Origin: a virus
Taxonomy: Duplodnaviria > Heunggongvirae > Uroviricota > Caudoviricetes
IMG/VR virus record: IMGVR_UViG_3300029473_000215
DNA length: 17,382 nucleotides
Direction: 5' to 3' (one strand)
Positions 1 through 16,912 of the stretch are shown in pieces. The position numbers and the translations under genes are program-made. Numbering within the stretch: position 1 is the stretch's first letter; the number at the start of each line of letters is the position of its first letter. The notes under the pieces are model-generated. The model did not search any database. It was given only the letters and a program-made list of their open reading frames with translations, and was not told the DNA's origin.

Positions 1-1338
1 ATGCGTCAGAGAGAGCTTGCAGCCACCGCTAAGGCCTTCATGTTGGATAGGCCTGAAGTCTCACTACAGGAGCTTACAGAGCATCTCCGGTCTATGGCTG
101 AGCAGTTCCTGACAGACGCTAGTGACGATTACTGGAATGGACTTGAGGTCGCTACTTTGGTCGACGAGAAGTCCAACCTGAGGGAGCTAGCCGCTACGCA
201 AGCATTGAGTCTGGACCAGCAGAAGGGCATAAGGTTAGCGCTTGAAGTCCTGACCGCAGCACAGCAGAGGGTAGACACTGGTGATACCTCTGGTCTGATT
301 GATATTGTGATGAATAACCCTACGGATTACTCAACTATAGGCGACTCTACGTCAATTCTGAAGAATGAGCAGGGGGGTAGACCAGCAGTTTTCACACAGG
401 AGCGCCAACCTGAGGTCGCTATCTGTAGTTTTTCTGAGCTTGTGTCCTCGCTGCTGGCTGAGAAGGTCCAGACCCTGAAGTCCTCCAGCTACAAGGACCT
501 GTCGTCCTCACTGAATACCGTCTCTCGGTTCTTACCTGAAAACATGGACCTGATGTCCCGCTCTGAGTGGCTGGCTGTCAGGGACTCCATGCTGGCTGCT
601 GAGGTGAGACCATCGACAATCAACAAGCTGCTGACTAAAGCGAAGATGTGTCTTGATTACGGTCTGATGAATGGACAGCTTGAGGGCCGCAACCCTATTG
701 AACGGATGAAGCTGACCAAGGATATCGACTCCAAGCGCAGGGCGTTCACAGACGAGGAGCTGGAGAGACTTCTGGTCCGTGTTGAGTCTGAGTATCAGTT
801 CACACGACACACGGCTCACACGACCTCTGAGGCCCGTAGATGGGCGTCTCTGGTGTCTGTGGTCACTGGCGCTCGGTCTGCTGAGGTCTGCCACCTGACT
901 AAACGTGACATTGTAACCTTGGACAATGGGCTGGTCTGTATCGACATCAATGAAGATGGGGACGGGAAGTCTGTGAAGAACAAACATTCAGTCCGACTTG
1001 TGCCGTTGACCGATGGGGCCTGTGGTCTTGACCTGAAGTCCTTCCTCGAATGGGTAGACATGCAGCCTGACGAGGGTCCTCTCTTCGGGATGACTCCAAG
1101 CGCATACTCTAGCTGGTTTAACTCAAGGGTCATGACTGAAGCTCTGGGAGACGCTACGGATGTCTCTCTCCACAGTCTGAGGCACTGGCTAGCGACCAGA
1201 ATGAAAGAGCGTGGAGTCAATCTGGTGGACGCTCAGGGCATCTTAGGTCACAGCAGTCAGTCCATTACGTATGACCTGTACGGGAAAGGACATGCAGTCC
1301 AGAGACTCGCAGATGCATTGGCTGTGACGTTTGGTTAA
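1..1338 (+). CDS. Tyrosine-type site-specific recombinase (phage integrase family), 445 aa
   Basis: C-terminal catalytic motifs visible in translation: TGARSAEV (box I Arg), HSLRHW (His-x-x-Arg), LGHSSQSITYDLYGKG (conserved His and catalytic Tyr). ATG sits at window position 1, so the true N-terminus could lie upstream. Confidence 0.7.
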   Translation: MRQRELAATAKAFMLDRPEVSLQELTEHLRSMAEQFLTDASDDYWNGLEVATLVDEKSNLRELAATQALSLDQQKGIRLALEVLTAAQQRVDTGDTSGLIDIVMNNPTDYSTIGDSTSILKNEQGGRPAVFTQERQPEVAICSFSELVSSLLAEKVQTLKSSSYKDLSSSLNTVSRFLPENMDLMSRSEWLAVRDSMLAAEVRPSTINKLLTKAKMCLDYGLMNGQLEGRNPIERMKLTKDIDSKRRAFTDEELERLLVRVESEYQFTRHTAHTTSEARRWASLVSVVTGARSAEVCHLTKRDIVTLDNGLVCIDINEDGDGKSVKNKHSVRLVPLTDGACGLDLKSFLEWVDMQPDEGPLFGMTPSAYSSWFNSRVMTEALGDATDVSLHSLRHWLATRMKERGVNLVDAQGILGHSSQSITYDLYGKGHAVQRLADALAVTFG

Positions 1339-1487
1339 GTGACTGAAAGTATTAGCAACCACACTAAACTATCACTGTAGGGACTTCATCCCGCCTCTGG
1401 TCCTATGCGTAGCGTCCATGCGGGAGCCACCCAACTTAACTTTCAGCATCACTCATCCACTTTCACCATTACACGGAGGTATCCATC

Positions 1488-2222
1488 ATGGGCCGACCAG
1501 CCAAGCCACTAGACCGAATCAAACTGTACGACCATTACACCTTTGACCCAACCATTCCTCAGCTACTCCGAGTCAAGACACCTTACGGCCAATCTAAACG
1601 CGCCACAGGAGAGCCTGTTAGCTTCTATGTGCATCAAAATGGCTATGCCTCTGTCTCTGTACTGGGTAAGCGCTATCGTCGCTCCAGAGTCATCTACAGC
1701 CTGTGTAAGGGTCACATCCCTGAGGGAATGTTCGTTGACCATATCGACGGTAACCGACTCAATGACCATCCTGACAACCTGCGCCTAGTTACACCACAGC
1801 AGAACCAGTGGAACAGAGACAACCTTGGAGGCAAACTTCAGAACTATTTGCCGAAAGGGATTGACTTTGTAAAAGCTGAGGGTCGCTACAGAGCGCGTAT
1901 TAAGATAGACGGCAAGGTCCGGGCGAGACTCTCTTATGAGGTCAGGGAGCTTATGGTCTGGCTACAGGAACAGCGTCAGAAGCTACACGGTGAATTCGCC
2001 TACGATGGGTGGACCGACTGGACAGAGGCAGACCAGAAGCGAGCTGACGAGCGCTACGAGGTGTCCAAGCCTGAAGGGTATAAACCAAGGAAGCGACGTT
2101 TACCCGGCTACGCTAAGACGCATGATGGACTGAAAGTCTACATTGAGCCTAAAACTGGGCGTCTCTACTTTAAGAAGCTGAACAAGAAGCACTACATCGA
2201 CGAAGAGTCTGTGGTGGTTTGA
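1488..2222 (+). CDS. HNH homing endonuclease with AP2-like DNA-binding domain, 244 aa
   Basis: HNH motif VDHIDGNRLNDHPDNLRLVTPQQNQWN; downstream AP2-like segment GIDFVKAEGRYRARIKIDGKVRARLSYE; GGAGG SD (1475-1479) 8 nt before the ATG. Confidence 0.75.
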   Translation: MGRPAKPLDRIKLYDHYTFDPTIPQLLRVKTPYGQSKRATGEPVSFYVHQNGYASVSVLGKRYRRSRVIYSLCKGHIPEGMFVDHIDGNRLNDHPDNLRLVTPQQNQWNRDNLGGKLQNYLPKGIDFVKAEGRYRARIKIDGKVRARLSYEVRELMVWLQEQRQKLHGEFAYDGWTDWTEADQKRADERYEVSKPEGYKPRKRRLPGYAKTHDGLKVYIEPKTGRLYFKKLNKKHYIDEESVVV

Positions 2223-2369
2223 TGACGGTTGCTAACTTAGAGCGCCTCTGTAGGCCTTGGTGCGTCTGGTCTGTAGAGGAGGGGGCTAAATTATCAGTAT
2301 AGGGAAAATGGCAGACACTACCGCCTCTCCTTCCAGCAATGGGGGGAGGGGGGGCAGACCATAGATGCT

Positions 2370-2418
2370 GACTTAAAGTTAAGACTCTAAGTAAGACTGA
2401 AGTTATGACTCTAAGTTA
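2370..2418. repeat. Four tandem 12-bp direct repeats (consensus aGACTctAAGTtA), followed by an AT-rich tract (2417-2450) and a degenerate fifth copy near 2461-2473
   Basis: Read directly: gacttaaagtta / agactctaagta / agactgaagtta / tgactctaagtt. A G6-A-G7 tract lies just upstream (2341-2354). Confidence 0.7.
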
Positions 2419-2504
2419 ATTATTATCTTCTTATGAAGATTAATATAAGACCTATAGTCCAGACTTAAGTCAGACCTCATTCCTTCTATGTGTCTTCCTC
2501 AACC

Positions 2505-2780
2505 ATGGGGTCGACGATAGCTCCGTCAGTCTCCAGCTCAAAGCATCGGGACCCTGTATACATTGGGTCGTTGCTTGGGCTTCCACCTGCTAAGGAGCCG
2601 GGTCAGTGGCGTAGCTCTCTAAAAGACAAGCTCGTTAAAGATGCAATTTTGCATGTTTTAGCAGGACGCTCCGGTGGTTCGACTCCGGGTCGGCATTCAG
2701 ATTGGCAAAGTAGAAGACACCGAGTCGACACAGTACAAGCGTTTTGCTCAGACCAAAGTTGGAAAGCTACTGAGGAATAG
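2505..2780 (+). pseudogene. Partial duplicate of the KilA-N gene 5' region (KilA-N N-terminal motif fragment); may be a remnant or a small paralog
   Basis: Translation ...PPAKEPGQWRSSLKDKLVKDAILHVLAGRSGGSTPG... matches ...PSAKEPGQWRSSVRTLLDQDANLHVAHGGSTPG... of the 3011-3769 protein. Shares an exact 26-nt block (ctgctaaggagccgggtcagtggcgt) and a 17-nt block (ggtggttcgactccggg); no similarity downstream. Confidence 0.3.
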
Positions 2781-3010
2781 GCAGAAAATCCGCCTTATCC
2801 TTAGGGTCGAAGGACTTAACGGGTCCAACTTTGGGCTGGATTTAAAAGAGGAAACTTTCCTTTATCAACTATGGTCTTCACACGACCTCATCATCAATCC
2901 TCAAGTCTTTCTGTATGTCTCCTGTTGCCTGTGAGTCTCCCTATCGTTGGGGGCTTGAGTAGGCTTTCAGGGTGTGACTTCAGGAGGCATAACAAAAGGA
3001 GTACAACGAT

Positions 3011-3769
3011 ATGTCAACTCAACCCTTAATGAAGCATGAAGTAGTTCTTCCGGTCATCGTTGACGGCTATCACTGGGCCTGTAATCAGGACCGTATGTGG
3101 AACCTGAACGAGCTACATAAAGAGCTTGAGCTTCCATCTGCTAAGGAGCCGGGTCAGTGGCGTTCTAGCGTCAGGACGCTTCTTGACCAAGATGCAAATT
3201 TGCATGTTGCTCATGGTGGTTCGACTCCGGGGACATGGGCTACTGAAGAGGCGGCTATTGCCTATGCGATGTGGGTCTCACCTGATTTCTACCTTAAGGT
3301 CATCCGTGCTTTCATCGCTTTACGTAACGACAAAGTGTCGGAAGCTAAGGCGCTGGCGCAGGACTCCAAGGAACTTAAGGGTCTCAAGCCTATAGCCCGT
3401 AACTGGCTGGAAAAGCTGGATAACCCGAAGCAGGGCCACACCCTGACAGAGTGTCTTAAGAATCTCGACTTCAGGTTAGGTACAAAGCTGGTATCAGCCA
3501 AGGCTCTTAATGCCGTATTGAAGTCAGGGCGTATAGCTAATCCCTTCTATAGTCGCAAGCTGGACGGTCGAGGACAGCCTGTATTTGACATCTCATCAGG
3601 TGGCTGGATGACCAGCTTCAATCCTAAGGGTCTGGAGAACGGCTATTACCGTCTTCAGGATAACCACTATAACGGTCAGGAGGGGCTTAAGGTCCTCACC
3701 AAGGGTTACGAGTGGCTTAAGTCCAACAAGGTCGAGCTGGTTCGTCTGTGCGCTAAGGGAGGACTCTAA
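3011..3769 (+). CDS. KilA-N domain protein, 252 aa
   Basis: KilA-N/APSES-like signature ...HGGSTPGTWATEEAAIAYAMWVSPDFYLKVIRAF; SD aaaaggag 10 nt upstream of the ATG. Confidence 0.7.
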   Translation: MSTQPLMKHEVVLPVIVDGYHWACNQDRMWNLNELHKELELPSAKEPGQWRSSVRTLLDQDANLHVAHGGSTPGTWATEEAAIAYAMWVSPDFYLKVIRAFIALRNDKVSEAKALAQDSKELKGLKPIARNWLEKLDNPKQGHTLTECLKNLDFRLGTKLVSAKALNAVLKSGRIANPFYSRKLDGRGQPVFDISSGGWMTSFNPKGLENGYYRLQDNHYNGQEGLKVLTKGYEWLKSNKVELVRLCAKGGL

Positions 3770-3770
3770 G

Positions 3771-3944
3771 ATGATTGACCCGCGCACACCTGAGGGCCGC
3801 ATGACTCTCCGTTACCGTGGCTATCGGACTGAAGTCCTCCTCAGAGAGCTTGGTCTAGACCCGGAAGATGAGACCCGCCAGCACCAATCCCGAGACGAGC
3901 TAATAGCCCAACTGGTCGCTATGAAACTGTCGCTAGCAAGCTAG
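3771..3944 (+). CDS. Small hypothetical protein, 57 aa (below the ORF-track length cutoff)
   Basis: ATG one nucleotide after the KilA-N stop (TAAgATG); GGAGG at 3758-3762, 8 nt upstream; uninterrupted frame to TAG at 3942-3944; translation MIDPRTPEGRMTLRYRGYRTEVLLRELGLDPEDETRQHQSRDELIAQLVAMKLSLAS. Confidence 0.45.
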   Translation: MIDPRTPEGRMTLRYRGYRTEVLLRELGLDPEDETRQHQSRDELIAQLVAMKLSLAS

Positions 3945-4081
3945 CTGTCTCCTAACCGTTAGTAGCTCACCTACTCAATACCTGATTTTAAAACCTTTTG
4001 AGATGACCGATGCGGGGAGACCCGTAGGCATAACTGTGTCTGCGATACCGATAGTCTCAACTCTCAATAGGAGTACACCTT

Positions 4082-4573
4082 ATGTTATTCAACAACAACG
4101 ACTGGAAACTGTCAGTCACCGACATCAATCTCTACGAGAATACTGTGAGTCTGGACGGTCAGTCCTATCCGTTGTCGCTCGCTATCAAGACCCTCATTCC
4201 GGGCTACCTGTCCGGCCTGCCAGCCACCAGCCGTGAGTCTATGGAGCTACTGGAAGCTCTGGCTGAAGCTGGCGTGACCATTGGTAACTTCTTCAGTAAT
4301 GACCTGATGACCGCCTACCAACGCCGCCAGATGAATAAGCGTGTCGAGGCTGAGCGTATCGCTAAAGAGCTGGCGTCTCAGAAAGAGCGTACCCGCGAAA
4401 TGTTCATGACCGAAGACGAATGGCAGAAAGAGTTACAACGCCGCGAACAGGTCAAAGCTGAACGCCGGACCTATGGTGAGAACCTCCGCAGCGCTACCCA
4501 TTCCGCTGGTCGTTCCCGTGCCGCTATTGTCGCTGACCTTGAGTCAGGCGGTAACTGGCTGGACAGCCTGTAA
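4082..4573 (+). CDS. Hypothetical protein, 163 aa, with charged, probably helical C-terminal half (scaffold-like is a guess)
   Basis: AGGAG SD upstream of the ATG; C-terminal region rich in E/R/K/Q heptad-like runs (RRQMNKRVEAERIAKELASQKERTREMF...QKELQRREQVKAERR). No family recognised. Confidence 0.6.
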   Translation: MLFNNNDWKLSVTDINLYENTVSLDGQSYPLSLAIKTLIPGYLSGLPATSRESMELLEALAEAGVTIGNFFSNDLMTAYQRRQMNKRVEAERIAKELASQKERTREMFMTEDEWQKELQRREQVKAERRTYGENLRSATHSAGRSRAAIVADLESGGNWLDSL

Positions 4574-4641
4574 GACTCACAAGTGGTCCTGACCTGATGT
4601 CGGGACCCACGTATCTAAACTAATTTAGGAGATTGATTATT

Positions 4642-5628
4642 ATGACTATGACTAAAGACAGCTATCAGTTCGGCATTGAGCCAGTACGTATCACCGACAC
4701 CGACAACATTCAGGTCAATGAAGGTCTGCCGACTAACGCTGACCCACAGGTCTATGCCCTCCAGTTAGCTAAGACGGTTAAGGCTATGCTGAACGGTGTA
4801 CTTAAAGACGCTCAGGATAACATTCCGTTCCCTGTAGAAGTCCTGCCTACCCGCAATAGCCTGCCTACCCCAATCATCGCCCACACTCTGTCTGACCGCT
4901 CTGTGGTCGTCCCTGTACGCGGTGGTGAGCGACCTGAAGTCGTGACCGCTCCGTCTGGTCAGGAGATTGTGGTAGAGCCTATTGAGCAAGCTATCCTTGT
5001 GTCTCACCAGACCAAGCTATGGGACGTCAAGTCTTCCACTGGTTTCACTCAGGGTACGCTCCAGCAGGACGCTATGAACATCTGTGAGAATGTGGTCCGT
5101 ACCATCAACGCTCGCATGGTTGACGTTCTGGAGTCCTCCAAGCTGCTGAAGACTGTAGAGCTGCCAGTCCTGACTGGAAGCCTGACCACTAAGGCAGACG
5201 CTATCATGGACGCTCTGTACGAGAACACCGAGCCTTCCTTTGGTTCTGAGGTTACTGATTACGGTATCATCGCCCATGAGTCACACCTCAAGGCTCTCTC
5301 CCGTCTGGCTGCTAAGCAGGGCTTCGGTGGTGAAGACGCTATCGTGGATATGCTGGGTACCGACATCGCGTATTACAACGGTGAGGACAAAGGTGTGTTC
5401 ATGCTGGCTAAACGCTTCACGGCCCTGAGCTTCGGCTGCTTCCGTCACGACGGTGAGAATATTACGGTCGTCCTTTCACGTGATGGCGACTCTCAGTCCC
5501 ATGACCTTGAGATTCTCGGTAAAGTGTTCGTTGTCGCTGAAGCTGCTACGACCATCAAGATGGGCACTGGCTCAGCTACTGCCGTCCTGCCTGTAGTCAA
5601 ACGCCTGAGTTTCACTAAGACAAGCTAA
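4642..5628 (+). CDS. Hypothetical protein, 328 aa (possibly structural; unrecognised)
   Basis: Long ORF with AGGAG at 4627-4631, 10 nt before ATG 4642 (the ORF track starts at an upstream TTG, 4633); followed by a strong intrinsic terminator. No motif recognised. Confidence 0.65.
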   Translation: MTMTKDSYQFGIEPVRITDTDNIQVNEGLPTNADPQVYALQLAKTVKAMLNGVLKDAQDNIPFPVEVLPTRNSLPTPIIAHTLSDRSVVVPVRGGERPEVVTAPSGQEIVVEPIEQAILVSHQTKLWDVKSSTGFTQGTLQQDAMNICENVVRTINARMVDVLESSKLLKTVELPVLTGSLTTKADAIMDALYENTEPSFGSEVTDYGIIAHESHLKALSRLAAKQGFGGEDAIVDMLGTDIAYYNGEDKGVFMLAKRFTALSFGCFRHDGENITVVLSRDGDSQSHDLEILGKVFVVAEAATTIKMGTGSATAVLPVVKRLSFTKTS

Positions 5629-5647
5629 CTAACAATAACGACTTATT

Positions 5648-5686
5648 GGTCAGACTTCCGTAACTGGATGTCTGGCCTTTATTTTG
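5648..5686 (+). terminator. Rho-independent terminator after the 328-aa gene
   Basis: GGTCAGAC (5648-5655) pairs with GTCTGGCC (5670-5677) with one G-U pair, inner TCC/GGA pairs, followed by TTTATTTTG. Confidence 0.5.
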
Positions 5687-5728
5687 TACTAGTAATCTAG
5701 TTCATGGGTGCGGAAAGAGGAGGACCTA

Positions 5729-5839
5729 ATGGACCTACACAAAGTCTATCTCGTAGTCTTCCTGCTAAAGCTAGCTCTGGTAGTCGTGCTGATGGTCTGG
5801 CCTAAAGTACGATGGTTTCTGACAGAAAAATGTGAATGA
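5729..5839 (+). CDS. Small hydrophobic peptide, 36 aa, predicted single transmembrane helix (below ORF-track cutoff)
   Basis: GAGGAGGA SD (5717-5724) 5 nt before ATG 5729; translation MDLHKVYLVVFLLKLALVVVLMVWPKVRWFLTEKCE; stop TGA at 5837-5839. Confidence 0.4.
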   Translation: MDLHKVYLVVFLLKLALVVVLMVWPKVRWFLTEKCE

Positions 5840-5940
5840 CCATCTAATACATTGAGCCAGCAGACTTCCCCCCATAGTCCCGCCTCAAGTCCTGACCGAG
5901 GCCACCGGGGGGCCTGACCAGCCGTCTAGACATCCCGTCT

Positions 5941-5974
5941 AATGACACAAGTCTGGCACAAAGAATGACACAAG
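5941..5974. repeat. Two exact 11-bp direct repeats (aatgacacaag) at 5941-5951 and 5964-5974, 57-90 bp from the island/chromosome junction
   Basis: Read directly from sequence. Confidence 0.6.
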
Positions 5975-5982
5975 GTCTTGAC

Positions 5983-7440
5983 TCAATGCAGGACCTCAGG
6001 CCTACTAAGGGTCCGCTTCAAGTCCTTGAAGTTCCAGATGAACTTAATGGGCACATCCAGTTTATCTTTGCCCCGGACGCCGTCGCGGATTGCCGTCATT
6101 TTGGGGCCATGATCGATAGCATCTGTCCAGCTGAAGCAGGAAATTGACGTTTTGACCGGATTATCCAGCACCGGCAGGCGCTCTATGGTAATGGTATAGG
6201 TCGATTCACGCGCGCCACTATTTCCGCCGCTGATGCCGACATTGCCCGTCAGAATAGGCAACATAGCAATAGCGCGTGCGGTCAGCTCGCCGTTTGCCTG
6301 GCGTTGTGGCCCCCAGCCCTGGCAGGTATAAGCGGGTTTTGCTGTGCCAATTTCACGCGCCAGTTTGATGATACGGTCCACCGGGATACCGGTAATTTGC
6401 GAAGCCCACTGCGGCGTTTTCGCTGTTTTATCGTCACCTTCACCAAGAATATAGGCTTTATAGTGACCATTTTTGGGTGCATCTGCGGGTAAGGTTTTTT
6501 CGTCATAGCCGACGCAGTATTTATCGAGAAAAGGTTGATCAACGAGATTTTCGTTAATCAATACCCAGGCAATACCCGCAACCAGCGCGGCATCGGTGCC
6601 CGGGCGAATAGGAAGCCATTCATCTTCACGACCAGCAGCCGTATCGGTATATCGCGGATCGATAACAATCATTTTGGCGTTCGATTTCTCGCGCGCTTTT
6701 TCAAGAAGATAAGTGATGCCACCGCCGCTCATGCGGGTTTCTGCCGGGTTGTTACCAAACATCACGACCAGCTTGCTGTTTTCAATATCCGTGGTGCTGT
6801 TGCCATCATTACTGCCGTAGGTGTAGGGCATGGCACAGGAAATTTGCGCAGTGCTGTAGGAGCCATACTGGTTGAGTGAACCGCCGTAGCAGTTCATCAG
6901 GCGTTTGACCGCCGAGGCTGATGGCGAAGAGCGGGTCATATTGCCGCCAACAATCCCCGAAGAGTACTGAATATATACAGCCTCATTGCCATATTGTTCG
7001 ACGGTTTTTTTCAGACTACTGGCGATAGTATCCAGGGCTTCATCCCAGCTAATCCGTTCGAATTTGCCTTCACCGCGTTTACCCACGCGTTTCATTGGGT
7101 AATTCAAGCGATCGGGATGATTAATACGCCGGCGGATGGAGCGACCGCGCAAACAGGCGCGTACTTGATGATTGCCATACTCGTCGTTGCCGGTGTTGTC
7201 AGTTTCCACCCAGATCACTTCATTATCTTTAACATGTAGACGAAGTGCACAGCGGCTACCACAGTTGACGGAACAGGCACCCCAGACCACTTTCTCGCTG
7301 GCCTGTTGTACCGCTGCCGCTGCACTGCGTAGGGTGAACGGTAAAGAAAAACCGCCTGCAGCCAGCGCCAGAGAACCTATCGCGGTAGATTTAACGAGTG
7401 TTCTGCGGCTGATGCCCACCATTCGTTCATTTTTGGACAT
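5983..7440 (-). pseudogene. ynfE: 3'-truncated ynfE (DmsA-family molybdopterin oxidoreductase, Tat-secreted): about 470 native codons plus a 15-codon foreign tail
   Basis: N-terminus MSKNERMVGISRRTLVKSTAIGSLALAAG (twin-arginine signal) and body match E. coli YnfE/DmsA from memory. Homology ends after ...DVPIKFIWN (codon at 6033-6031), then FKDLKRTLSRPEVLH-stop from island DNA. Full-length protein is about 800 aa. Confidence 0.85.
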
Positions 7441-7539
7441 AACTCACTCCCTGTTCTTTATCGTTATATAAATGTTTATATATTGAATATTTAGCGCGCT
7501 AACAATAGAGGGAGTCTACCCATTTTGGGTTAAGAATTA

Positions 7540-7553
7540 TTAATCCACATCAA
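7540..7553. promoter_or_regulatory. Putative FNR-box (TTAAT-N4-ATCAA) upstream of ynfE
   Basis: ttaatccacatcaa matches 9 of 10 positions of the FNR consensus TTGAT-N4-ATCAA, about 100 bp upstream of the ynfE start; ynfEFGH is known to be anaerobically induced. Confidence 0.35.
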
Positions 7554-7600
7554 TAGAAGGGTATGAGTAATATGGTGGGATTATGTTGTATGTTCAAATC

Positions 7601-7621
7601 GCCGGATGTGTCATATCCGGC
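7601..7621 (-). terminator. Perfect 7-bp stem hairpin between ynfD and ynfE (possible weak terminator or attenuator for ynfD)
   Basis: gccggat-gtgtcat-atccggc; on the minus strand it is followed by only GATTTG, so the U-tract is weak. Confidence 0.3.
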
Positions 7622-7638
7622 GTTCAGTCGATAATGTG

Positions 7639-7947
7639 TTACTGCGGTTCGGCAGGCGCGCCATCCTGGCTAGACTGCGCGGGAGCAGAGACGTTACCGC
7701 TGGTGGTGCGGGTATAGAGAATTTTATGCGTATCATTAGCGCAATGGCCGACGACCTGGGAATCAGGCTGATCAACCTGGTCATTGGGTACAATACTTAA
7801 CGTGAAGCTGCTTTCGGGTACGCCATTATTGATAATGCGCTGTGATATATCGCTCTGTATGCGCTCACAGGATCCCGGCGCGGCGAGTACCGCGGGTGAG
7901 GCGAGGGCGAGCAGAAGCGCGGCACAGCAGGTTGAGAGTTTCATCAT
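7639..7947 (-). CDS. ynfD: YnfD, DUF1161-family secreted protein
   Basis: Translation MMKLSTCCAALLLALASPAVLA... (signal peptide) matches E. coli YnfD from memory; GGAG SD upstream of ATG 7947/7944; the ORF-track start at 7986 is an upstream extension. Confidence 0.85.
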   Translation of the reverse strand: MMKLSTCCAALLLALASPAVLAAPGSCERIQSDISQRIINNGVPESSFTLSIVPNDQVDQPDSQVVGHCANDTHKILYTRTTSGNVSAPAQSSQDGAPAEPQ

Positions 7948-8051
7948 AAGCTCCTTACGCGAAGATAACTTCTTTAAGCATAGCATTTAACGTGTAAAGT
8001 ACTGTATTTGCTACTATGATTGAGAATCATCTCTACTCTCTGGTGACTGTT

Positions 8052-8764: not shown

Positions 8765-9325
8765 CTATTGTGCGGTCGGCTTCAGGAGAGTCTGACCCGG
8801 TGTTTTGTGCTCTGCCAGATACTGATGCTGGAATATACACATGCGAATGGCATTACGATATTGACCATTAATAAAGAACTCGTGCATCAATTCACCTTCA
8901 ACCGAAAAGCCAAGCTTGCGGTAAATGTGAATCGCTTTTTCATTCTCTTTATCAACGATCAGATACAGCTTATAGAGATTGAGAACGGTAAAGCCATAGT
9001 CCATTGCTAATTTGGCGGCACGGGTTGCCAGACCTTTCCCCTGATACTCCGGGGAGATAATTATCTGAAATTCTGCGCGGCGATGAACATGGTTAATTTC
9101 CACCAGCTCCACCAGACCGGCTTTTTCGCCGTCACATTCCACCACAAAGCGCCGTTCGCTCTGATCGTGAATATGCTTATCATACAGATCAGAGAGTTCA
9201 ACAAAGGCTTCGTAGGGTTCCTCAAACCAGTAACGCATCACACTGGCGTTATTGTCGAGTTGATGTACATAGCGTAAATCTTCACGCTCCAGCGGGCGTA
9301 GCTTAACACTGTGGGCGCTTGGCAT
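8765..9325 (-). CDS. speG: Spermidine N1-acetyltransferase SpeG (GNAT family), 186 aa
   Basis: Translation [26 protein letters not shown]... matches E. coli SpeG from memory. Confidence 0.95.
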
Positions 9326-10211: not shown

Positions 10212-10367
10212 AAAGGTATTCTATTTCATCTTTTGTCAACCATTCACAGCGCAAATATACGCCTTTTTTTGTGATCACTCCGGCTTTTTTCAATCTTCAT
10301 ACTTGTATGGTAGTAGCTCAGATGCGTAGATTTCATGCATCACGACAAGCGATGCAAGGAATCGAAC

Positions 10368-12801: not shown

Positions 12802-14082
12802 TTAATTTTTCATTGCTTCGTTATGGGGCATGGTTGGGGCAAACTCGCTTAACTGTGTATTTAACAAAGCTACCTGTGCATTATTGTTTTCAGACATCCA
12901 TTTTCCGTATACCTGAAATACCATTTGCGCATCTGCATGGCCCATCTGGTTTGCTATAAATGCCGGGTTAGCACCAGCTGTCAGCGACCAGCAGGCATAA
13001 GTATGTCTCGACTGATATGATTTTCGATGGCGGAGTCCGGCACGTTTTATCGCTGCGTCCCACATCTGCCTTATTGAGTCAACGGTAAAATGGTCACCAT
13101 AATTTTTTACTCCCGCTGACACTTCAGGTTGAAAAACAAAGGTGCATTTTTGTTTTTCTGTTCTGCCATACTCTCTGAGGTGAACATCAATGATATGCTC
13201 TTTGCTCAGTCTCGTTAATGTCATCTGACTCCGGAGAGCGTCGATTGCTGGCTTAATAAGATGAATGACCCGATTGGTTCCCGCCTGTGTTTTTGGTACC
13301 GTGAAACGGTCTTTTGCTAAATTTCTCCTGATCATCATTGTTCCATTTTTCAGATCTATGTCCTCCCATCCAAGTGCACACAGCTCACCAGGGCGAACGC
13401 CAGTATAAACAGAAACACACCATAAATTTTTTGCTTGCTGATTTCTGCACGCATCGATAAGACGGATAAATTCCTCCCGCGAAAGAGGATCCGGAATGGT
13501 TCTTGATTCCTTTAATGGCGAGATCCCCTTAAACGGATTATCTGGCAGGTAACCGTTATCAACACCAAACTGGAACACGGCGTTAAGATTTGTCATGTAA
13601 TTATTTACAGTTACAGCCGATCTTCCTGGTTGTGTAACAATATAGTTACTTTTGGGGATCTGGTATCCAGTCAGTAGCTCTTTACGAACCTCCAGTAATT
13701 TTTCTTTATTAATCGATGAGGCAAGATTTTTTTCACCGATTATGCTCAGGATATTTTTGATGACGGCACGGTATGTGTTGAGTGATGTTTTGGCGACTTC
13801 AGTTTCTTTCAGTGCCAGAAATTTTTCAGCCAGTTCTTTTATGGTTAAATCTTGTCGGGCCTCACCAAATTTTTCCAGATTGCGTGAGGAGGGAAACTGT
13901 TTTGCATAGTCGAAAACACCAGTTTTTATTGCGTAACAAACAGAGGAGCGTAGTTCACCTGCAACGCGCCTGTTTTTTGCTGTGTCAGGAACCCCCAGAT
14001 TTTCCCTGACTCTTACGCCTTTATAGACAAACCAGATACGTAATTTCCCTCCATGGTTTTCCACGCCTGTCGGATATTTCAT
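12802..14082 (-). CDS. Lambdoid phage integrase (tyrosine recombinase with N-terminal arm-binding domain), about 426 aa
   Basis: N-terminus MKYPTGVENHGGKLRIWFVYKGVRVRE resembles Rac IntR-type arm-binding domains; C-terminus carries RHRKSYQSRHTYAC...GHADAQMVFQVYGKW. Start chosen at 14082; an alternative ATG is at 14097. Confidence 0.9.
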   Translation of the reverse strand: MKYPTGVENHGGKLRIWFVYKGVRVRENLGVPDTAKNRRVAGELRSSVCYAIKTGVFDYAKQFPSSRNLEKFGEARQDLTIKELAEKFLALKETEVAKTSLNTYRAVIKNILSIIGEKNLASSINKEKLLEVRKELLTGYQIPKSNYIVTQPGRSAVTVNNYMTNLNAVFQFGVDNGYLPDNPFKGISPLKESRTIPDPLSREEFIRLIDACRNQQAKNLWCVSVYTGVRPGELCALGWEDIDLKNGTMMIRRNLAKDRFTVPKTQAGTNRVIHLIKPAIDALRSQMTLTRLSKEHIIDVHLREYGRTEKQKCTFVFQPEVSAGVKNYGDHFTVDSIRQMWDAAIKRAGLRHRKSYQSRHTYACWSLTAGANPAFIANQMGHADAQMVFQVYGKWMSENNNAQVALLNTQLSEFAPTMPHNEAMKN

Positions 14083-14116
14083 TTCAACTTCTCTCATTAG
14101 TTAGTGTGGCTTTTAG

Positions 14117-14368
14117 TCAAGTAAGATGACGTCTTGGTCTCGCTGATGCCTGGCGCTCAATCCAGCGATCAATTTCTTCCAGGTTGTAAAAGCATGGACT
14201 GTTATCCCATGGCATACCGTCATGAGCGACATGCTTATATTCCCTTCCTTCCATAAACGATTTTTCCCGGGCCTTTTTTAGCGTACCTTTTTTTATTCCT
14301 TTCAGCGCAATTAACTGCTCTTCGGATACCCATTTGCCGGGAGAGACAATCATGATTACTTCGCTCAT
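14117..14368 (-). CDS. Excisionase-like protein, 83 aa
   Basis: Small basic protein immediately upstream of int on the same strand; sequence ...GKWVSEEQLIALKGIKKGTLKKAREKSFMEGREYKHV... resembles the lambdoid prophage excisionase-like family from memory. Confidence 0.65.
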   Translation of the reverse strand: MSEVIMIVSPGKWVSEEQLIALKGIKKGTLKKAREKSFMEGREYKHVAHDGMPWDNSPCFYNLEEIDRWIERQASARPRRHLT

Positions 14369-14397
14369 CGATTTCTTTATCTCTTACATCAGACGAG

Positions 14398-14429
14398 CGC
14401 CGGTTGCAGAATACCAGTCACAACCGGCG
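14398..14429. other. 9-bp perfect inverted repeat with 14-nt spacer between the exo and xis genes
   Basis: cgccggttg (14398-14406) and caaccggcg (14421-14429); no adjacent U-tract on either strand. Confidence 0.3.
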
Positions 14430-14440
14430 ACAGTTGAACA

Positions 14441-16912
14441 TTAAGAATCAGCCTGACTCGGGATCAGTTTTTGCCAGATAACTGAAACGTATTTTGCCTG
14501 GTAACGGGCGTCGTCAAGTGCATTATGGCGCTCACCTTCGAATGGAATAGCCGTTCTGGCATCGAAGTCTATGGCTTTCCCCAGCTCAACGATTGTGCGT
14601 ACATCGCGATCGTTGTAGTAACGCCACGGGCAGGGGATCCCCTGCCGTTCGTATGAACGGCGCAAAATCGTGTTGTCGAAGTTGGCTCCATTTCCCCAAA
14701 CCTGAACAAAAAATTCACCGGAGTTTTCGTCGATAAATTCCCGCAATTGTAACAGTGCATCATCTAACGGGATTTCATCGGTCATAATGGCAGATTGCGC
14801 TTCGCGTGATTGCTTAAGCCACCATTTAATGGTGTCCCGATCAATGACTCCGCCAGCAGTTTCCAGATCGATAGTCTTACTAAATTCCGGTCCCATATCT
14901 CCGGTTTGCGGATCGAAAAATATTGCACCTATTGAGATGATCGGGGCATCAGGATTTTTTCCCATGGTTTCAAGGTCGATCATTAGATGGTCACACGTCC
15001 TGCTGGTGGATGTGATTTCGTGATGACCGTTCACCTTAATTGGGTGATCTGCCGTCTCGCCAGTTTCATTATCGCTATTGTGATGCTGATTGCCGCCAGT
15101 GTTCTCCTTGTGTGGATGTTCAGCGCCTTCCATTTCCTCCGGATCATCTTCCTGAACTTCAACCTGATACTCTTCATCGAATGTTTCTTGGTATGTTGCG
15201 TCGCCCATCACCGCGCCACAATCAGGGCAGTTGCCGCCGCCGGTCTGACCGCAGGCGGTGCAGACTTTTTCCACTTCCTGTTGCGCCACTGGTTCAGGCT
15301 GTTTCGTTTCTGGCTCGTTTTGTAACGCATTTGGACTGTTTTGTTCCGCTTTTTGGTAGTTCCGTTCCGATTCATGCTGGTTCTGGTTCACAGAATCGCG
15401 GGTCTGGATCCCCTTAACCCATTTCGGATCATTCGGGTCACTAATCCCTTCAACAAATTCACCACGTGATGCAGCAAGCAACTTATCGGCGTCAGGCTGG
15501 CTGATATTGGCTGCCTGCATAATTTTGTTTACTTCGTCAGCGGTAACTTTTATCGGCTCTGGTTGTTCTGAATCTTCAGCGGTATCTACATTTTGCGGTA
15601 AGCCCGTGTATGTGCCATTTTTTCGGGCAAAATATTCTTCTTTTGTGATTTCAGTGGCGCCAGCAGCCAGTGCCTTATCCAGACCAGAAAGTTTGTTTGC
15701 GCGACCGTATTTTTCTCCGTCCTTATCTGCGAAGAGGAAATAGAACGGCCCCTCACGCTCTACAGATGGTTCAGCTTCCGGCGCGGTTTCATTTTTTGGG
15801 ATATCAGATACCTCAGTTTCCACTGTATCAGTTTGTGTTTCTGATGACTGGAGAACATCAACAGTGCCCAGGTCTGTTTCTTCATTCTCAAACACGCCCT
15901 TTGTCGTCAGGTATTCGCAGATATATTTGTTCAGTGCTACGGGATCTTTGTGAATGTCGATCGGACGCTCACGGACAAGGCCAAAAATAGTTTGGCGGTC
16001 GTAGCGAAGGGCATCAGGCTGTTTGCGCATTGATGCCGAGATACGCTTCCAGTCTTCGCGGTCGTTGTCGATAACTTCTTTTTTTGCCCAGCGATGGATG
16101 CTGCCGTCAATGTTTCCGGCATCCACATCACCAGGCCAGAGAGCGTAGGCCAGTTCGTCATCCAGTGTTTTCCATGTCTGCTTGTATTCGCGATGAATGG
16201 CAGCAATGACCGGGCTGATTTTTCCTGTTGAATTTTCAGTGTACTGTTGATTGGCTCTGGCGCGGGCGAGATCAACAACAGACGTGTATTTTCCGGTTTC
16301 CTTGCGTTCACCTTCGCGACGTTTTTTCCAGATGCGCATCTCTGCCTGAATTTCGGGCCATTTAGCACCAGGAATACATTTATGCTTAACCCACCCAATG
16401 GCGTGCAACTTAAGCTCCGGATACATGGCGTTAACTTCTGGCATTTTCATCAACGCTTCAACGATATGTCCGTCGAATGTTGCCATGTCTTCCTGCAACA
16501 ATTCCTGTGCGCTAATAACCATATCAACGGTGATGTTTTCACATGTGTCGAACTTAACCATGACAGCGTTCTGTACTTCAGGGGCCAGCTTGTCAAAAGT
16601 GACGTTCATCGGATCGGATTCAGTCTCAACCGGGACAAAAGAAGCAGACTCCTCATCCCAGCGGTTTTCCTGCATATATTCAGCATCCCATGAATCGAGG
16701 GCAGGGCGGGGTATGCCAGGTTTATCCTCGCAGACAATAAATTTATAAGCGCAGTCCTGAGCAGCCGGATAATGTTCCAGGAATTGCCAGTGAAATTTTG
16801 CTCGAGCACGGCGTTCGTCGCCAGCTTCAATGGCTGTGGCTACAGCCACAGCGCCTTCTTCCCTTGTTGCCAGTTCGTCAGGAATAGCGGCGCAAATAAA
16901 GACTTTACTCAT
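14441..16912 (-). CDS. Exodeoxyribonuclease VIII-like protein with C-terminal DnaQ-like (DEDDh) 3'-5' exonuclease domain, 823 aa
   Basis: Central segment KLLAASRGEFVEGISDPNDPKWVKGIQTRD and Cys4 cluster CTACGQTGGGNCPDCGAVMGDATYQETF match RecE from memory; C-terminus has DEDDh motifs MIDLETMG, WGNGANFDNTIL and HNALDDARYQ instead of the RecE PD-(D/E)xK nuclease; GAGG SD upstream of the ATG. Confidence 0.85.
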   Translation of the reverse strand: MSKVFICAAIPDELATREEGAVAVATAIEAGDERRARAKFHWQFLEHYPAAQDCAYKFIVCEDKPGIPRPALDSWDAEYMQENRWDEESASFVPVETESDPMNVTFDKLAPEVQNAVMVKFDTCENITVDMVISAQELLQEDMATFDGHIVEALMKMPEVNAMYPELKLHAIGWVKHKCIPGAKWPEIQAEMRIWKKRREGERKETGKYTSVVDLARARANQQYTENSTGKISPVIAAIHREYKQTWKTLDDELAYALWPGDVDAGNIDGSIHRWAKKEVIDNDREDWKRISASMRKQPDALRYDRQTIFGLVRERPIDIHKDPVALNKYICEYLTTKGVFENEETDLGTVDVLQSSETQTDTVETEVSDIPKNETAPEAEPSVEREGPFYFLFADKDGEKYGRANKLSGLDKALAAGATEITKEEYFARKNGTYTGLPQNVDTAEDSEQPEPIKVTADEVNKIMQAANISQPDADKLLAASRGEFVEGISDPNDPKWVKGIQTRDSVNQNQHESERNYQKAEQNSPNALQNEPETKQPEPVAQQEVEKVCTACGQTGGGNCPDCGAVMGDATYQETFDEEYQVEVQEDDPEEMEGAEHPHKENTGGNQHHNSDNETGETADHPIKVNGHHEITSTSRTCDHLMIDLETMGKNPDAPIISIGAIFFDPQTGDMGPEFSKTIDLETAGGVIDRDTIKWWLKQSREAQSAIMTDEIPLDDALLQLREFIDENSGEFFVQVWGNGANFDNTILRRSYERQGIPCPWRYYNDRDVRTIVELGKAIDFDARTAIPFEGERHNALDDARYQAKYVSVIWQKLIPSQADS

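What the first reader, a model, noticed from the sequence alone, without database searches (positions are those of the whole stretch)
5941..5974. Exact 11-bp direct repeats next to the island/chromosome junction
aatgacacaag occurs twice, 23 bp apart, 57-90 bp from the point where ynfE homology ends. Short direct repeats beside an integration junction are typical of recombinase arm-type or accessory-factor binding sites.
Basis: seen in the sequence. Interest (0 to 1): 0.4.

Follow-up and report, generated by a model that had tools for sequence, protein, structure and literature searches.

The report
Integrase arm sites of ynfE island
The two identical 11-base repeats belong to a row of three or four short repeats that a small mobile island inserted in the E. 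coli ynfE gene carries near both of its ends; they are most likely docking sites for the island's own integrase, an ordinary feature of such elements that had not been described for this one.

Summary
AATGACACAAG occurs exactly twice (5941-5951, 5964-5974), 56-89 bp from the junction at 6030. By itself this is weak: 11% of shuffled windows contain such a pair.

The real unit is a 9-mer, TGACACAAR. A degenerate middle copy (TGGCACAAA, 5954) and a core-proximal variant (TGACTCAAT, 5979) make four sites spaced 11, 12 and 13 bp apart.

The element is a ~6.5-kb island split across ynfE, present in 156 of 5426 complete E. coli genomes. The window starts inside its integrase gene, so the other junction lies outside it. 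In related copies the same motif sits at that other end, in the same orientation, inside integrase codons 31-38.

The motif survives in strongly diverged arms with 2-3 copies. It is absent from sister islands at tRNA-Gly. Those share ~90% identical cargo proteins but have a ~30% identical integrase, and carry a different tandem motif (TGTAACC) in both arms. More distant integrase relatives each have their own tandem pair at the integrase start.

The best reading is arm-type binding sites of a heterobivalent tyrosine integrase. No binding data exist, and the N-terminal domain is modelled only at low confidence. This is a new member of a known kind, of modest interest.

The parts
1..1338 (+). 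Tyrosine integrase gene, 3' 445 codons only. The true start and the integrase-proximal junction (attL) lie about 250-330 bp upstream of the window.
   Evidence: Pfam PF00589, 1.3e-13. The full 526-aa gene is at L001 7752-9332, and window position 1 equals L001 8001.
5883..5892 (+). Outer copy of a second motif, CCTCAAGTCC, at -154 from the core centre. A matching copy lies at +151 in the other arm.
   Evidence: (family D3). Function unknown.
5943..5951 (+). Site 1, TGACACAAG (core of the first 11-mer), at -94 from the core centre.
5954..5962 (+). Site 2, TGGCACAAA: a degenerate middle copy that is a perfect TGACACAAA in elements L011, L013, L021 and L027.
5966..5974 (+). Site 3, TGACACAAG (core of the second 11-mer), at -71.
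5979..5987 (+). Site 4, TGACTCAAT: the core-proximal variant at -58. A counterpart, TGACTCAAY, lies at +42 in the other arm.
6016..6025 (+). Inner CTTCAAGTCC. Its inverted partner GGACTTGAAG lies on the other side of the core in attL (L001 7711-7720). It resembles the half-sites flanking the crossover.
   Evidence: Invariant in 11 elements.
6030..6044 (+). att core AGTTC-CAGAT-GAACT, duplicated at both junctions and present once in intact ynfE. Flanking polymorphisms place the crossover within 6030-6040.
   Evidence: (family D18).
5983..7440 (-). 5' fragment of ynfE (485-codon ORF), truncated by the insertion. True ynfE sequence starts at 6030.

Best explanation
The two 11-mers are sites 1 and 3 of a tandem array of four 9-bp sites (TGACACAAR x3, then TGACTCAAT). 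The sites are one helical turn apart (11, 12 and 13 bp). They lie in the integrase-distal arm (P arm, attR) of the attachment site of a ~6.5-kb island inserted in ynfE. The proposed mechanism is as follows. The island's 526-aa tyrosine integrase is heterobivalent. Its C-terminal core-binding and catalytic domains act at the palindromic core AGTTC-CAGAT-GAACT. A small N-terminal domain (residues ~47-100) binds the TGACACAAR sites here and the matching sites in the other arm (TGACTCAAY at +42, and a TGACACAAG-gc-TGACACAAA pair at +161/+172). Bridging of arm and core sites would assemble the integration and excision complexes, as in phage lambda. The pair in the other arm lies inside the integrase's own codons 31-38, so bound integrase may also damp its own expression. 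What is shown: the site anatomy, presence at both ends, conservation, and co-variation with the integrase. What is inferred: which protein binds, and every functional consequence.
For: (1) Both ends carry the motif. In L001 (24 kb), TGACWCAA occurs six times on the + strand against 0.69 expected from shuffles, and all six lie within 180 bp of the two cores in the same orientation. The two arms share ten words of 8 bases or more (0 of 2000 shuffles). In Kluyvera an exact 17-mer, GACACAAGGCTGACACA, is in both arms (0 of 2000). (2) The motif is conserved despite divergence. attR arms of 11 elements differ by indels and substitutions (MS6193 is 69.6% identical; the Kluyvera arm is heavily rewritten), yet each keeps 2-3 TGACACAAR copies at 11-12 bp spacing plus TGACTYAAY. 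In attL a 26-bp run that contains the pair is invariant in 11 elements, whereas the sequence immediately downstream varies and carries indels. (3) The motif follows the integrase, not the cargo. Sister islands at tRNA-Gly encode 163-aa and 331-aa proteins 89-94% identical to those here. Their integrase is only ~30% identical, and they have no TGACWCAA on the + strand in 20 kb. Instead they carry tandem TGTAACC pairs at 12-bp spacing in both arms, at +88/+100 and -86/-74. The HNH and KilA-N genes vary among ynfE islands that share the same motif. (4) This is a family trait. In five integrase clades (31-36% identical to one another), a clade-specific exact tandem pair of 8 bases or more sits just before or inside the start of the integrase N-domain coding sequence (AGTCACAAA, CTGTTAGA, TGTAACCC, TGACACAA). 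About 0.05 such pairs are expected per 140-bp window. (5) The integrase has extra N-terminal sequence. AlphaFold predicts strands at 47-50, 56-60 and 70-73 and a helix at 79-99 in both models. This region aligns with the DUF6538 domain of relatives. The C-terminal part matches Tn1549 Int, lambda Int and Cre. (6) The motif differs from the core sequence, as the lambda paradigm requires (PMC4880445).
Confidence: 0.72

Rival explanations
1. The array binds a recombination directionality factor (excisionase) or another accessory DNA-bending protein, like the tandem X1-X1.5-X2 Xis sites in the lambda P arm, and not the integrase.
For: Three to four head-to-tail sites one helical turn apart, 50-95 bp from the core in the integrase-distal arm, is the layout of lambda Xis sites (PMC4880445). 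Copy number varies between elements.
Against: No excisionase-like gene was recognised in the island by Pfam, PHROGs, NCBIfam or PADLOC. The only proteins shared by all ynfE islands other than the integrase are ~90% identical in the tRNA-Gly islands, which lack the motif. The motif is present in both arms and at the integrase start in every clade; Xis-type sites are normally confined to one arm.
Confidence: 0.12
2. The repeats are operator sites of a transcriptional regulator, or promoter elements that control integrase expression once the arms are joined in the excised circle. They have no role in synapsis.
For: After excision the array would lie ~130-165 bp upstream of the integrase ATG. TTGACT in site 4 resembles a -35 hexamer. 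Overlap of attL with integrase control regions is common (KplE1 intS; PMC2951348).
Against: The scan found no promoter-like site in 5500-6200. The matching sites in the other arm lie inside the coding sequence, downstream of the start codon. A pure operator would not need copies next to both junctions in every clade.
Confidence: 0.08
3. The repeats are a chance or slippage duplication with no function.
For: 11% of shuffled windows contain an exact 11-mer pair within 50 bp, and a second such pair lies at 4842/4860. The two bases that extend the 9-mer to 11 are not conserved.
Against: The motif is retained in arms that have otherwise diverged to under 70% identity. It occurs at both ends, and all copies cluster at the junctions.
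Confidence: 0.04
4. The repeats are iterons of a replication origin for the excised island.
For: Tandem direct repeats at helical-turn spacing.
Against: No replication initiator, primase or helicase gene was recognised. The units are 9 bp rather than the usual ~17-22 bp, there are few copies, and a second set lies inside the integrase gene.
Confidence: 0.02

Closest known systems
Arm-type sites of phage lambda integrase (P1, P2, P'1-P'3)
   Same: Short sites unlike the core sequence lie in both arms of the attachment site, tens to about 170 bp from the crossover. Some are contiguous at about one helical turn. They accompany a tyrosine integrase that has an extra N-terminal region (PMC4880445).
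   Different: The motif is different (TGACACAAR). The integrase is much larger (526 aa), with a long linker and an N-domain related to DUF6538 rather than the lambda Arm-DNA-bind_1 family. No Xis gene and no clear IHF site were found. One site pair lies inside the integrase coding sequence.
KplE1 (CPS-53) IntS/attL organisation
   Same: The integrase gene is transcribed away from the adjacent attL, so integrase arm-type sites overlap the gene's own control region. Negative autoregulation was shown there and predicted to be widespread (PMC2951348).
   Different: In KplE1 the sites overlap the promoter upstream of the ATG. Here the core-to-ATG gap is only 57 bp and the pair lies in codons 31-38. 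KplE1 has the TorI directionality factor; no counterpart was found here.
ynfE-integrating genetic elements mapped by TIGER (Eco892.7.ynfE, Sfl13.8.ynfE)
   Same: The same kind of 7-8-kb element disrupts the molybdopterin domain of ynfE. It is listed as a candidate for regulated gene integrity (PMC7192596).
   Different: In the passages of that paper I searched, the terms 'arm-type' and 'arm site' gave no hits. It maps element boundaries and does not describe arm sites, motif variants or the sister tRNA-Gly islands.
Lambda Xis sites X1-X1.5-X2
   Same: A tandem head-to-tail array at about 10-11 bp spacing in the P arm, between the distal arm sites and the core.
   Different: Xis sites occupy one arm only and need an Xis gene. 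Here the motif is in both arms and follows the integrase clade.

Membership tests
Integrase arm-type binding sites (heterobivalent tyrosine integrases) | A repeated short motif distinct from the core-type or crossover sequence | tested here: met
   TGACACAAR compared with the core AGTTC-CAGAT-GAACT and its flanking TGRAGTYC-like half-sites.
Integrase arm-type binding sites (heterobivalent tyrosine integrases) | Copies in both arms of the attachment site, next to both junctions of the integrated element | tested here: met
   Offsets are -94, -83, -71 and -58 in attR, and +42, +161 and +172 in attL. All TGACACAA copies in 24 kb lie in the arms.
Integrase arm-type binding sites (heterobivalent tyrosine integrases) | Conserved in homologous elements, and co-varying with the integrase rather than with other genes | tested here: met
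   Eleven ynfE elements keep the motif. tRNA-Gly islands with ~90% identical cargo but a ~30% identical integrase carry TGTAACC pairs instead. Three further clades each have their own pair.
Integrase arm-type binding sites (heterobivalent tyrosine integrases) | The integrase carries a separate N-terminal DNA-binding domain | tested here: inconclusive
Integrase arm-type binding sites (heterobivalent tyrosine integrases) | Sequence-specific binding by the integrase N-domain, and a requirement for the sites in recombination | not testable with these tools
   Needs gel-shift or footprinting and recombination assays.
Excisionase (RDF) binding sites | A cognate small RDF gene in the element | tested here: not met
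   None was recognised among ORFs of 60 aa or more by Pfam, PHROGs, NCBIfam or PADLOC. A novel or trans-acting RDF cannot be excluded.
Excisionase (RDF) binding sites | Sites confined to one arm, between the core and the distal arm-type sites | tested here: not met
   The same motif occurs in both arms.
IHF binding site | A match to WATCAANNNNTTR | tested here: not met
   There is no perfect match in either arm. One-mismatch hits lie at 5971-5983 (-) and at L001 7740-7752 (-).
Replication iterons | An adjacent initiator gene and multiple repeats of ~17-22 bp | tested here: not met
   No replication gene was found, and the units are 9 bp.
Structured RNA family (Rfam) | A match to a curated covariance model | tested here: not met
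   No match at gathering score in window 1-8000.

The most novel reading that the evidence does not exclude
In a whole family of large DUF6538-type tyrosine integrases, the integrase-proximal pair of arm-type sites is built into, or lies just before, the first codons of the integrase gene itself. Each clade has its own 8-9-bp motif, and a disordered N-terminal leader peptide is dictated by the DNA site. The recombinase would then sit on its own coding sequence and act as a built-in roadblock. That would couple integrase dosage to occupancy of the attachment site in small islands that carry defence cargo and have exchangeable integrase/att modules.
Probability: 0.25. Interest if true: 0.5.

Novelty: new member of a known kind. 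Interest (0 to 1): 0.3.

Why it matters
The result gives the full attachment-site anatomy (core, crossover interval, inner inverted repeats and arm arrays on both sides) for an island that interrupts ynfE in about 3% of complete E. coli genomes and has been flagged as a possible case of regulated gene integrity. That anatomy is what is needed to build excision and integration assays, to test whether ynfE is restored on excision, and to reuse the integrase as a site-specific tool. The comparison with sister islands also offers a simple rule for locating arm sites in this poorly annotated integrase family: a clade-specific tandem pair at the integrase start, mirrored at the far junction.

Tried and rejected
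(1) Phage collection: a megablast of the island found no match.
(2) The one genome-contig scan returned only four loci, all close relatives.
(3) A search for the predicted excised-circle junction (attP) found nothing in metagenome or viral contigs, so excision is not documented here.
(5) A lenient Pfam scan of the N-terminal 178 aa gave only a spurious weak hit.
(6) A full-text search for DUF6538 found no papers.
(7) IHF consensus, promoter and terminator scans, and Rfam: nothing convincing.
(8) The 60-aa ORF at 5965-6147, which starts in the second repeat, was rejected as a gene. It runs across the junction into antisense ynfE, and the region carries indels of 24-28 bp in other elements.
(9) The exact double site TGACACAAGGCTGACACA also occurs in unrelated GC-rich viral contigs with no integrase beside it. 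I treated this as coincidence.
(10) The exact-word test for shared motifs in the arms of the tRNA-Gly island L009 was not significant on its own. The motif became clear only after three more elements were compared.

Full report
OBSERVATION. AATGACACAAG is present exactly at 5941-5951 and 5964-5974 on the + strand, 23 bp start to start, with no other exact copy in the window. On its own this is weak. An exact non-overlapping 11-mer pair within 50 bp appears somewhere in 110 of 1000 dinucleotide-preserving shuffles of the window, and a second such pair (CCTGCCTACCC, 4842/4860) lies inside a gene. The significance comes from position and comparison.

CONTEXT. Window 1-6029 is the right-hand ~6 kb of a ~6.5-kb island inserted in E. 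coli ynfE. To its right come the 5' part of ynfE (ORF 5983-7440, minus strand), then ynfD, ynfC, speG and so on. The window begins inside the integrase gene. In the closely related copy L001 (strain PSJ-29), window position 1 corresponds to position 8001, the integrase (526 aa) starts at 7752, and the other junction is at 7676-7690.

The island is flanked by a duplicated core, (GT)AGTTCCAGATGAACT. This core occurs once in intact K-12 ynfE and is itself a palindrome, AGTTC-CAGAT-GAACT. Two polymorphisms bracket the strand exchange. One is island-type A against host T at window 6029. The other is island-type G against host A at the position equivalent to 6041, seen in several attL copies. Together they place the crossover within 6030-6040.

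The integrase-specific part of this arm (5925-6029) is found in 156 of 5426 complete E. coli genomes, once per genome and always on the chromosome. Close relatives occur in Shigella, Citrobacter, Leclercia, Enterobacter and Kluyvera. ynfE-integrating elements of this size were already mapped by the TIGER software and listed as candidates for 'regulated gene integrity' (PMC7192596). My term searches of that paper turned up no description of arm sites.

ANATOMY. Comparing attR arms from eleven elements shows that the conserved unit is the 9-mer TGACACAAR, not the 11-mer; the two bases before it vary.
- In the window type the arm reads TGACACAAG-tc-TGGCACAAA-gaa-TGACACAAG-gtct-TGACTCAAT, with sites starting at 5943, 5954, 5966 and 5979 (spacing 11, 12 and 13 bp).
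- The middle, degenerate copy is a perfect TGACACAAA in ETEC1732, NCTC9966 and two IMG/VR copies.
- Other elements have two copies (LCP30S3, MS6193, Kluyvera). Leclercia has a 2-bp insertion in the third copy.
- Pooled instances: TGACACAAG 32, TGACACAAA 23, TGGCACAAA 6, and two singletons. The core-proximal variant is TGACTCAAT/C in 24 cases and TGACTTAAY in 2.

Relative to the core centre (6037), the sites lie at -94, -83, -71 and -58. In the other arm (L001) they lie at +42 (TGACTCAAC) and at +161/+172 (TGACACAAG-gc-TGACACAAA). All are in the same orientation.

A second motif, CTYCAAGTCC, occurs at -154 and -21, inverted at +28, and again at +151. The inner inverted pair resembles the half-sites at the crossover and is invariant. 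Its role is unknown.

The stated refutation was absence from the other end and from homologous elements. The opposite is found.
- In the 24 kb of L001, TGACACAA occurs four times, two in each arm. TGACWCAA occurs six times on the + strand against 0.69 expected, all within 180 bp of a core.
- The two arms share ten words of 8 bases or more (0 of 2000 shuffles). In the Kluyvera element, whose attR arm is otherwise rewritten, an exact 17-mer GACACAAGGCTGACACA is shared by both arms (0 of 2000).
- The MS6193 arm is only 69.6% identical to the window, yet it keeps two adjacent TGACACAAA copies plus TTGACTTAAT.
- In attL, a 26-bp run containing the pair is invariant in eleven elements. The sequence directly downstream is variable and carries indels.

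WHICH PROTEIN. The discriminating comparison is with sister islands next to a tRNA-Gly gene in EHEC-type E. coli, Klebsiella and Pectobacterium.
- They share the island's last genes. The 163-aa and 331-aa proteins are 89-94% identical.
- Their integrase is only ~30% identical, and they contain no TGACWCAA on the + strand in 20 kb.
- Instead both arms carry a tandem pair of TGTAACC(A/C/T) at 12-bp spacing (for example L015 at +88/+100 and -86/-74). Nearly every copy of that word in the locus lies in these arms.
- Among ynfE islands with the same TGACACAAR motif, the genes after the integrase differ (HNH endonuclease, KilA-N and others).

The motif therefore belongs to the integrase/att module and not to any cargo protein.

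Four still more distant integrase relatives from IMG/VR (31-36% identity) each have their own exact tandem pair at 11-bp spacing: AGTCACAAA x2, or CTGTTAGA x2. The pair lies within the first 5-17 codons of the integrase, directly before the conserved 'PYLYRR-G-RY' hairpin. About 0.05 such pairs would be expected per 140-bp window. In those four loci I did not see the distal arm.

The ~45-residue leader of the ynfE integrase is absent from the tRNA-Gly type, where the site pair lies upstream of the ATG. In the ynfE type the pair occupies codons 31-38 (S-P-D-T-R-L-T-Q-I). Length variants of the protein have insertions exactly at this point.

MECHANISM. Most likely (about 0.7) these are arm-type sites of a heterobivalent integrase, working as in lambda (PMC4880445). 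N-domains would bind the arm arrays while the C-terminal domains bind and cut at the core, and the bridges would build the recombination complexes. Because the integrase gene reads away from the adjacent attL, as in KplE1 intS (PMC2951348), occupancy of the in-gene pair could also limit integrase expression. That last step is inference only.

Rivals:
- An excisionase-type factor. The layout fits, but no such gene was recognised, and the motif is in both arms and follows the integrase.
- A purely regulatory operator. No promoter-like site was found.
- Chance or slippage. This is contradicted by the conservation.
- Iterons. There is no replication gene.

LIMITS. There is no experimental binding. 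No excised attP junction was found in public contigs. There is no clear IHF site. The array-to-core distance varies by 24-28 bp between elements. The N-domain fold is uncertain.

VERDICT. The family-wide placement of one site pair in or at the integrase's own 5' coding sequence is the only mildly unusual aspect.

Noticed in passing
L009 1261-10360; L015 9854-14215; L016 9834-16235; L017, L036: Sister islands next to a tRNA-Gly gene share the 163-aa and 331-aa proteins (~90% identical). Their integrase is ~30% identical, and they carry tandem TGTAACC pairs at 12-bp spacing in both arms. The integrase/att module has therefore been exchanged on a conserved backbone.
   Followed up: partly
L009 3008-3667 (also L015 11628-12269, L016 11628-12266): The gene directly after the integrase in the tRNA-Gly islands is the anti-phage protein PD-T7-4 (PADLOC E = 1e-102 for L009). 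The same slot holds HNH, KilA-N, Rha, Bro-N or unknown genes in other copies. This suggests small islands with a variable defence-cargo hotspot.
   Followed up: partly
window 4082-4573 and 4633-5628: The two proteins conserved in all islands (163 aa and 331 aa) match nothing in Pfam, PHROGs, PADLOC or NCBIfam at the thresholds used. Some genome annotations call the smaller one 'peptidase M16 family', which no search here supports.
   Followed up: partly
window 5729-5839 (+): A small ORF with a strong ribosome-binding site encodes a hydrophobic peptide (MDLHKVYLVVFLLKLALVVVLMVWPKVRWFLTEKCE). It is conserved at the same place in ynfE and tRNA-Gly islands, with variable C-termini. It could be a small membrane peptide or toxin.
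   Followed up: no
L031 159-178; L032 195-214; L037 323-342; L038 214-233: In distant integrase relatives (31-36% identity), a clade-specific tandem 9-mer pair lies inside integrase codons ~5-17, just before the conserved N-terminal hairpin. No second copy was seen elsewhere in those loci.
   Followed up: partly
L014 ~9104-9127 (attL arm); L007 ~10236-10262 (attR arm); L016 attR arm: A ~24-bp cassette (CTCCTTGCAGTCACAGCCAAA) sits beside the TGACACAA sites. In one element it is in the attL arm, where it inserts eight codons (QTTPCSHS) into the integrase. In another it is in the attR arm. A similar sequence is in a Klebsiella tRNA-Gly island. This suggests exchange between the arms.
   Followed up: no
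L011 ~9137-9165; L007 ~10322-10345; L013 attR arm: A small hairpin-like cassette (TCTCGTGACTCTAACGAGTAAC) lies upstream of the site array in one element, but between array and core in two others.
   Followed up: no
L018 7498, L019, L020, L023, L024, L026, L028: The exact double site TGACACAAGGCTGACACA(AG) also occurs in unrelated GC-rich IMG/VR contigs, next to other TGACAC-like repeats and CCTGACCCG arrays. In L018, the one locus whose ORFs I listed, no integrase lies nearby. It is probably an unrelated repeat system or a coincidence.
   Followed up: partly
window 12802-16912 (-): A second, unrelated integrase (431 aa) followed by an 83-aa excisionase-sized ORF and an 823-aa exonuclease-sized ORF marks the end of a lambdoid prophage beside rspB. 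The same neighbour is annotated in L007, L008, L011 and L012.
   Followed up: no
window 4842-4870: A second exact 11-mer direct repeat (CCTGCCTACCC, 18 bp apart) lies inside the 331-aa ORF. It shows that such pairs arise in this window without any link to a junction.
   Followed up: no
L021 attR arm (upstream of the site array): One IMG/VR copy of the ynfE island has an extra triple tandem repeat (GGGTCTATGACTCC, about 14-15 bp period) just upstream of the TGACACAAR array.
   Followed up: no
L013 (NCTC9966): This is a decayed copy of the island. The integrase is broken by IS3 insertions, and the core-proximal attL site is mutated (TTGATTTAAC), while the TGACACAAR arrays remain.
   Followed up: no
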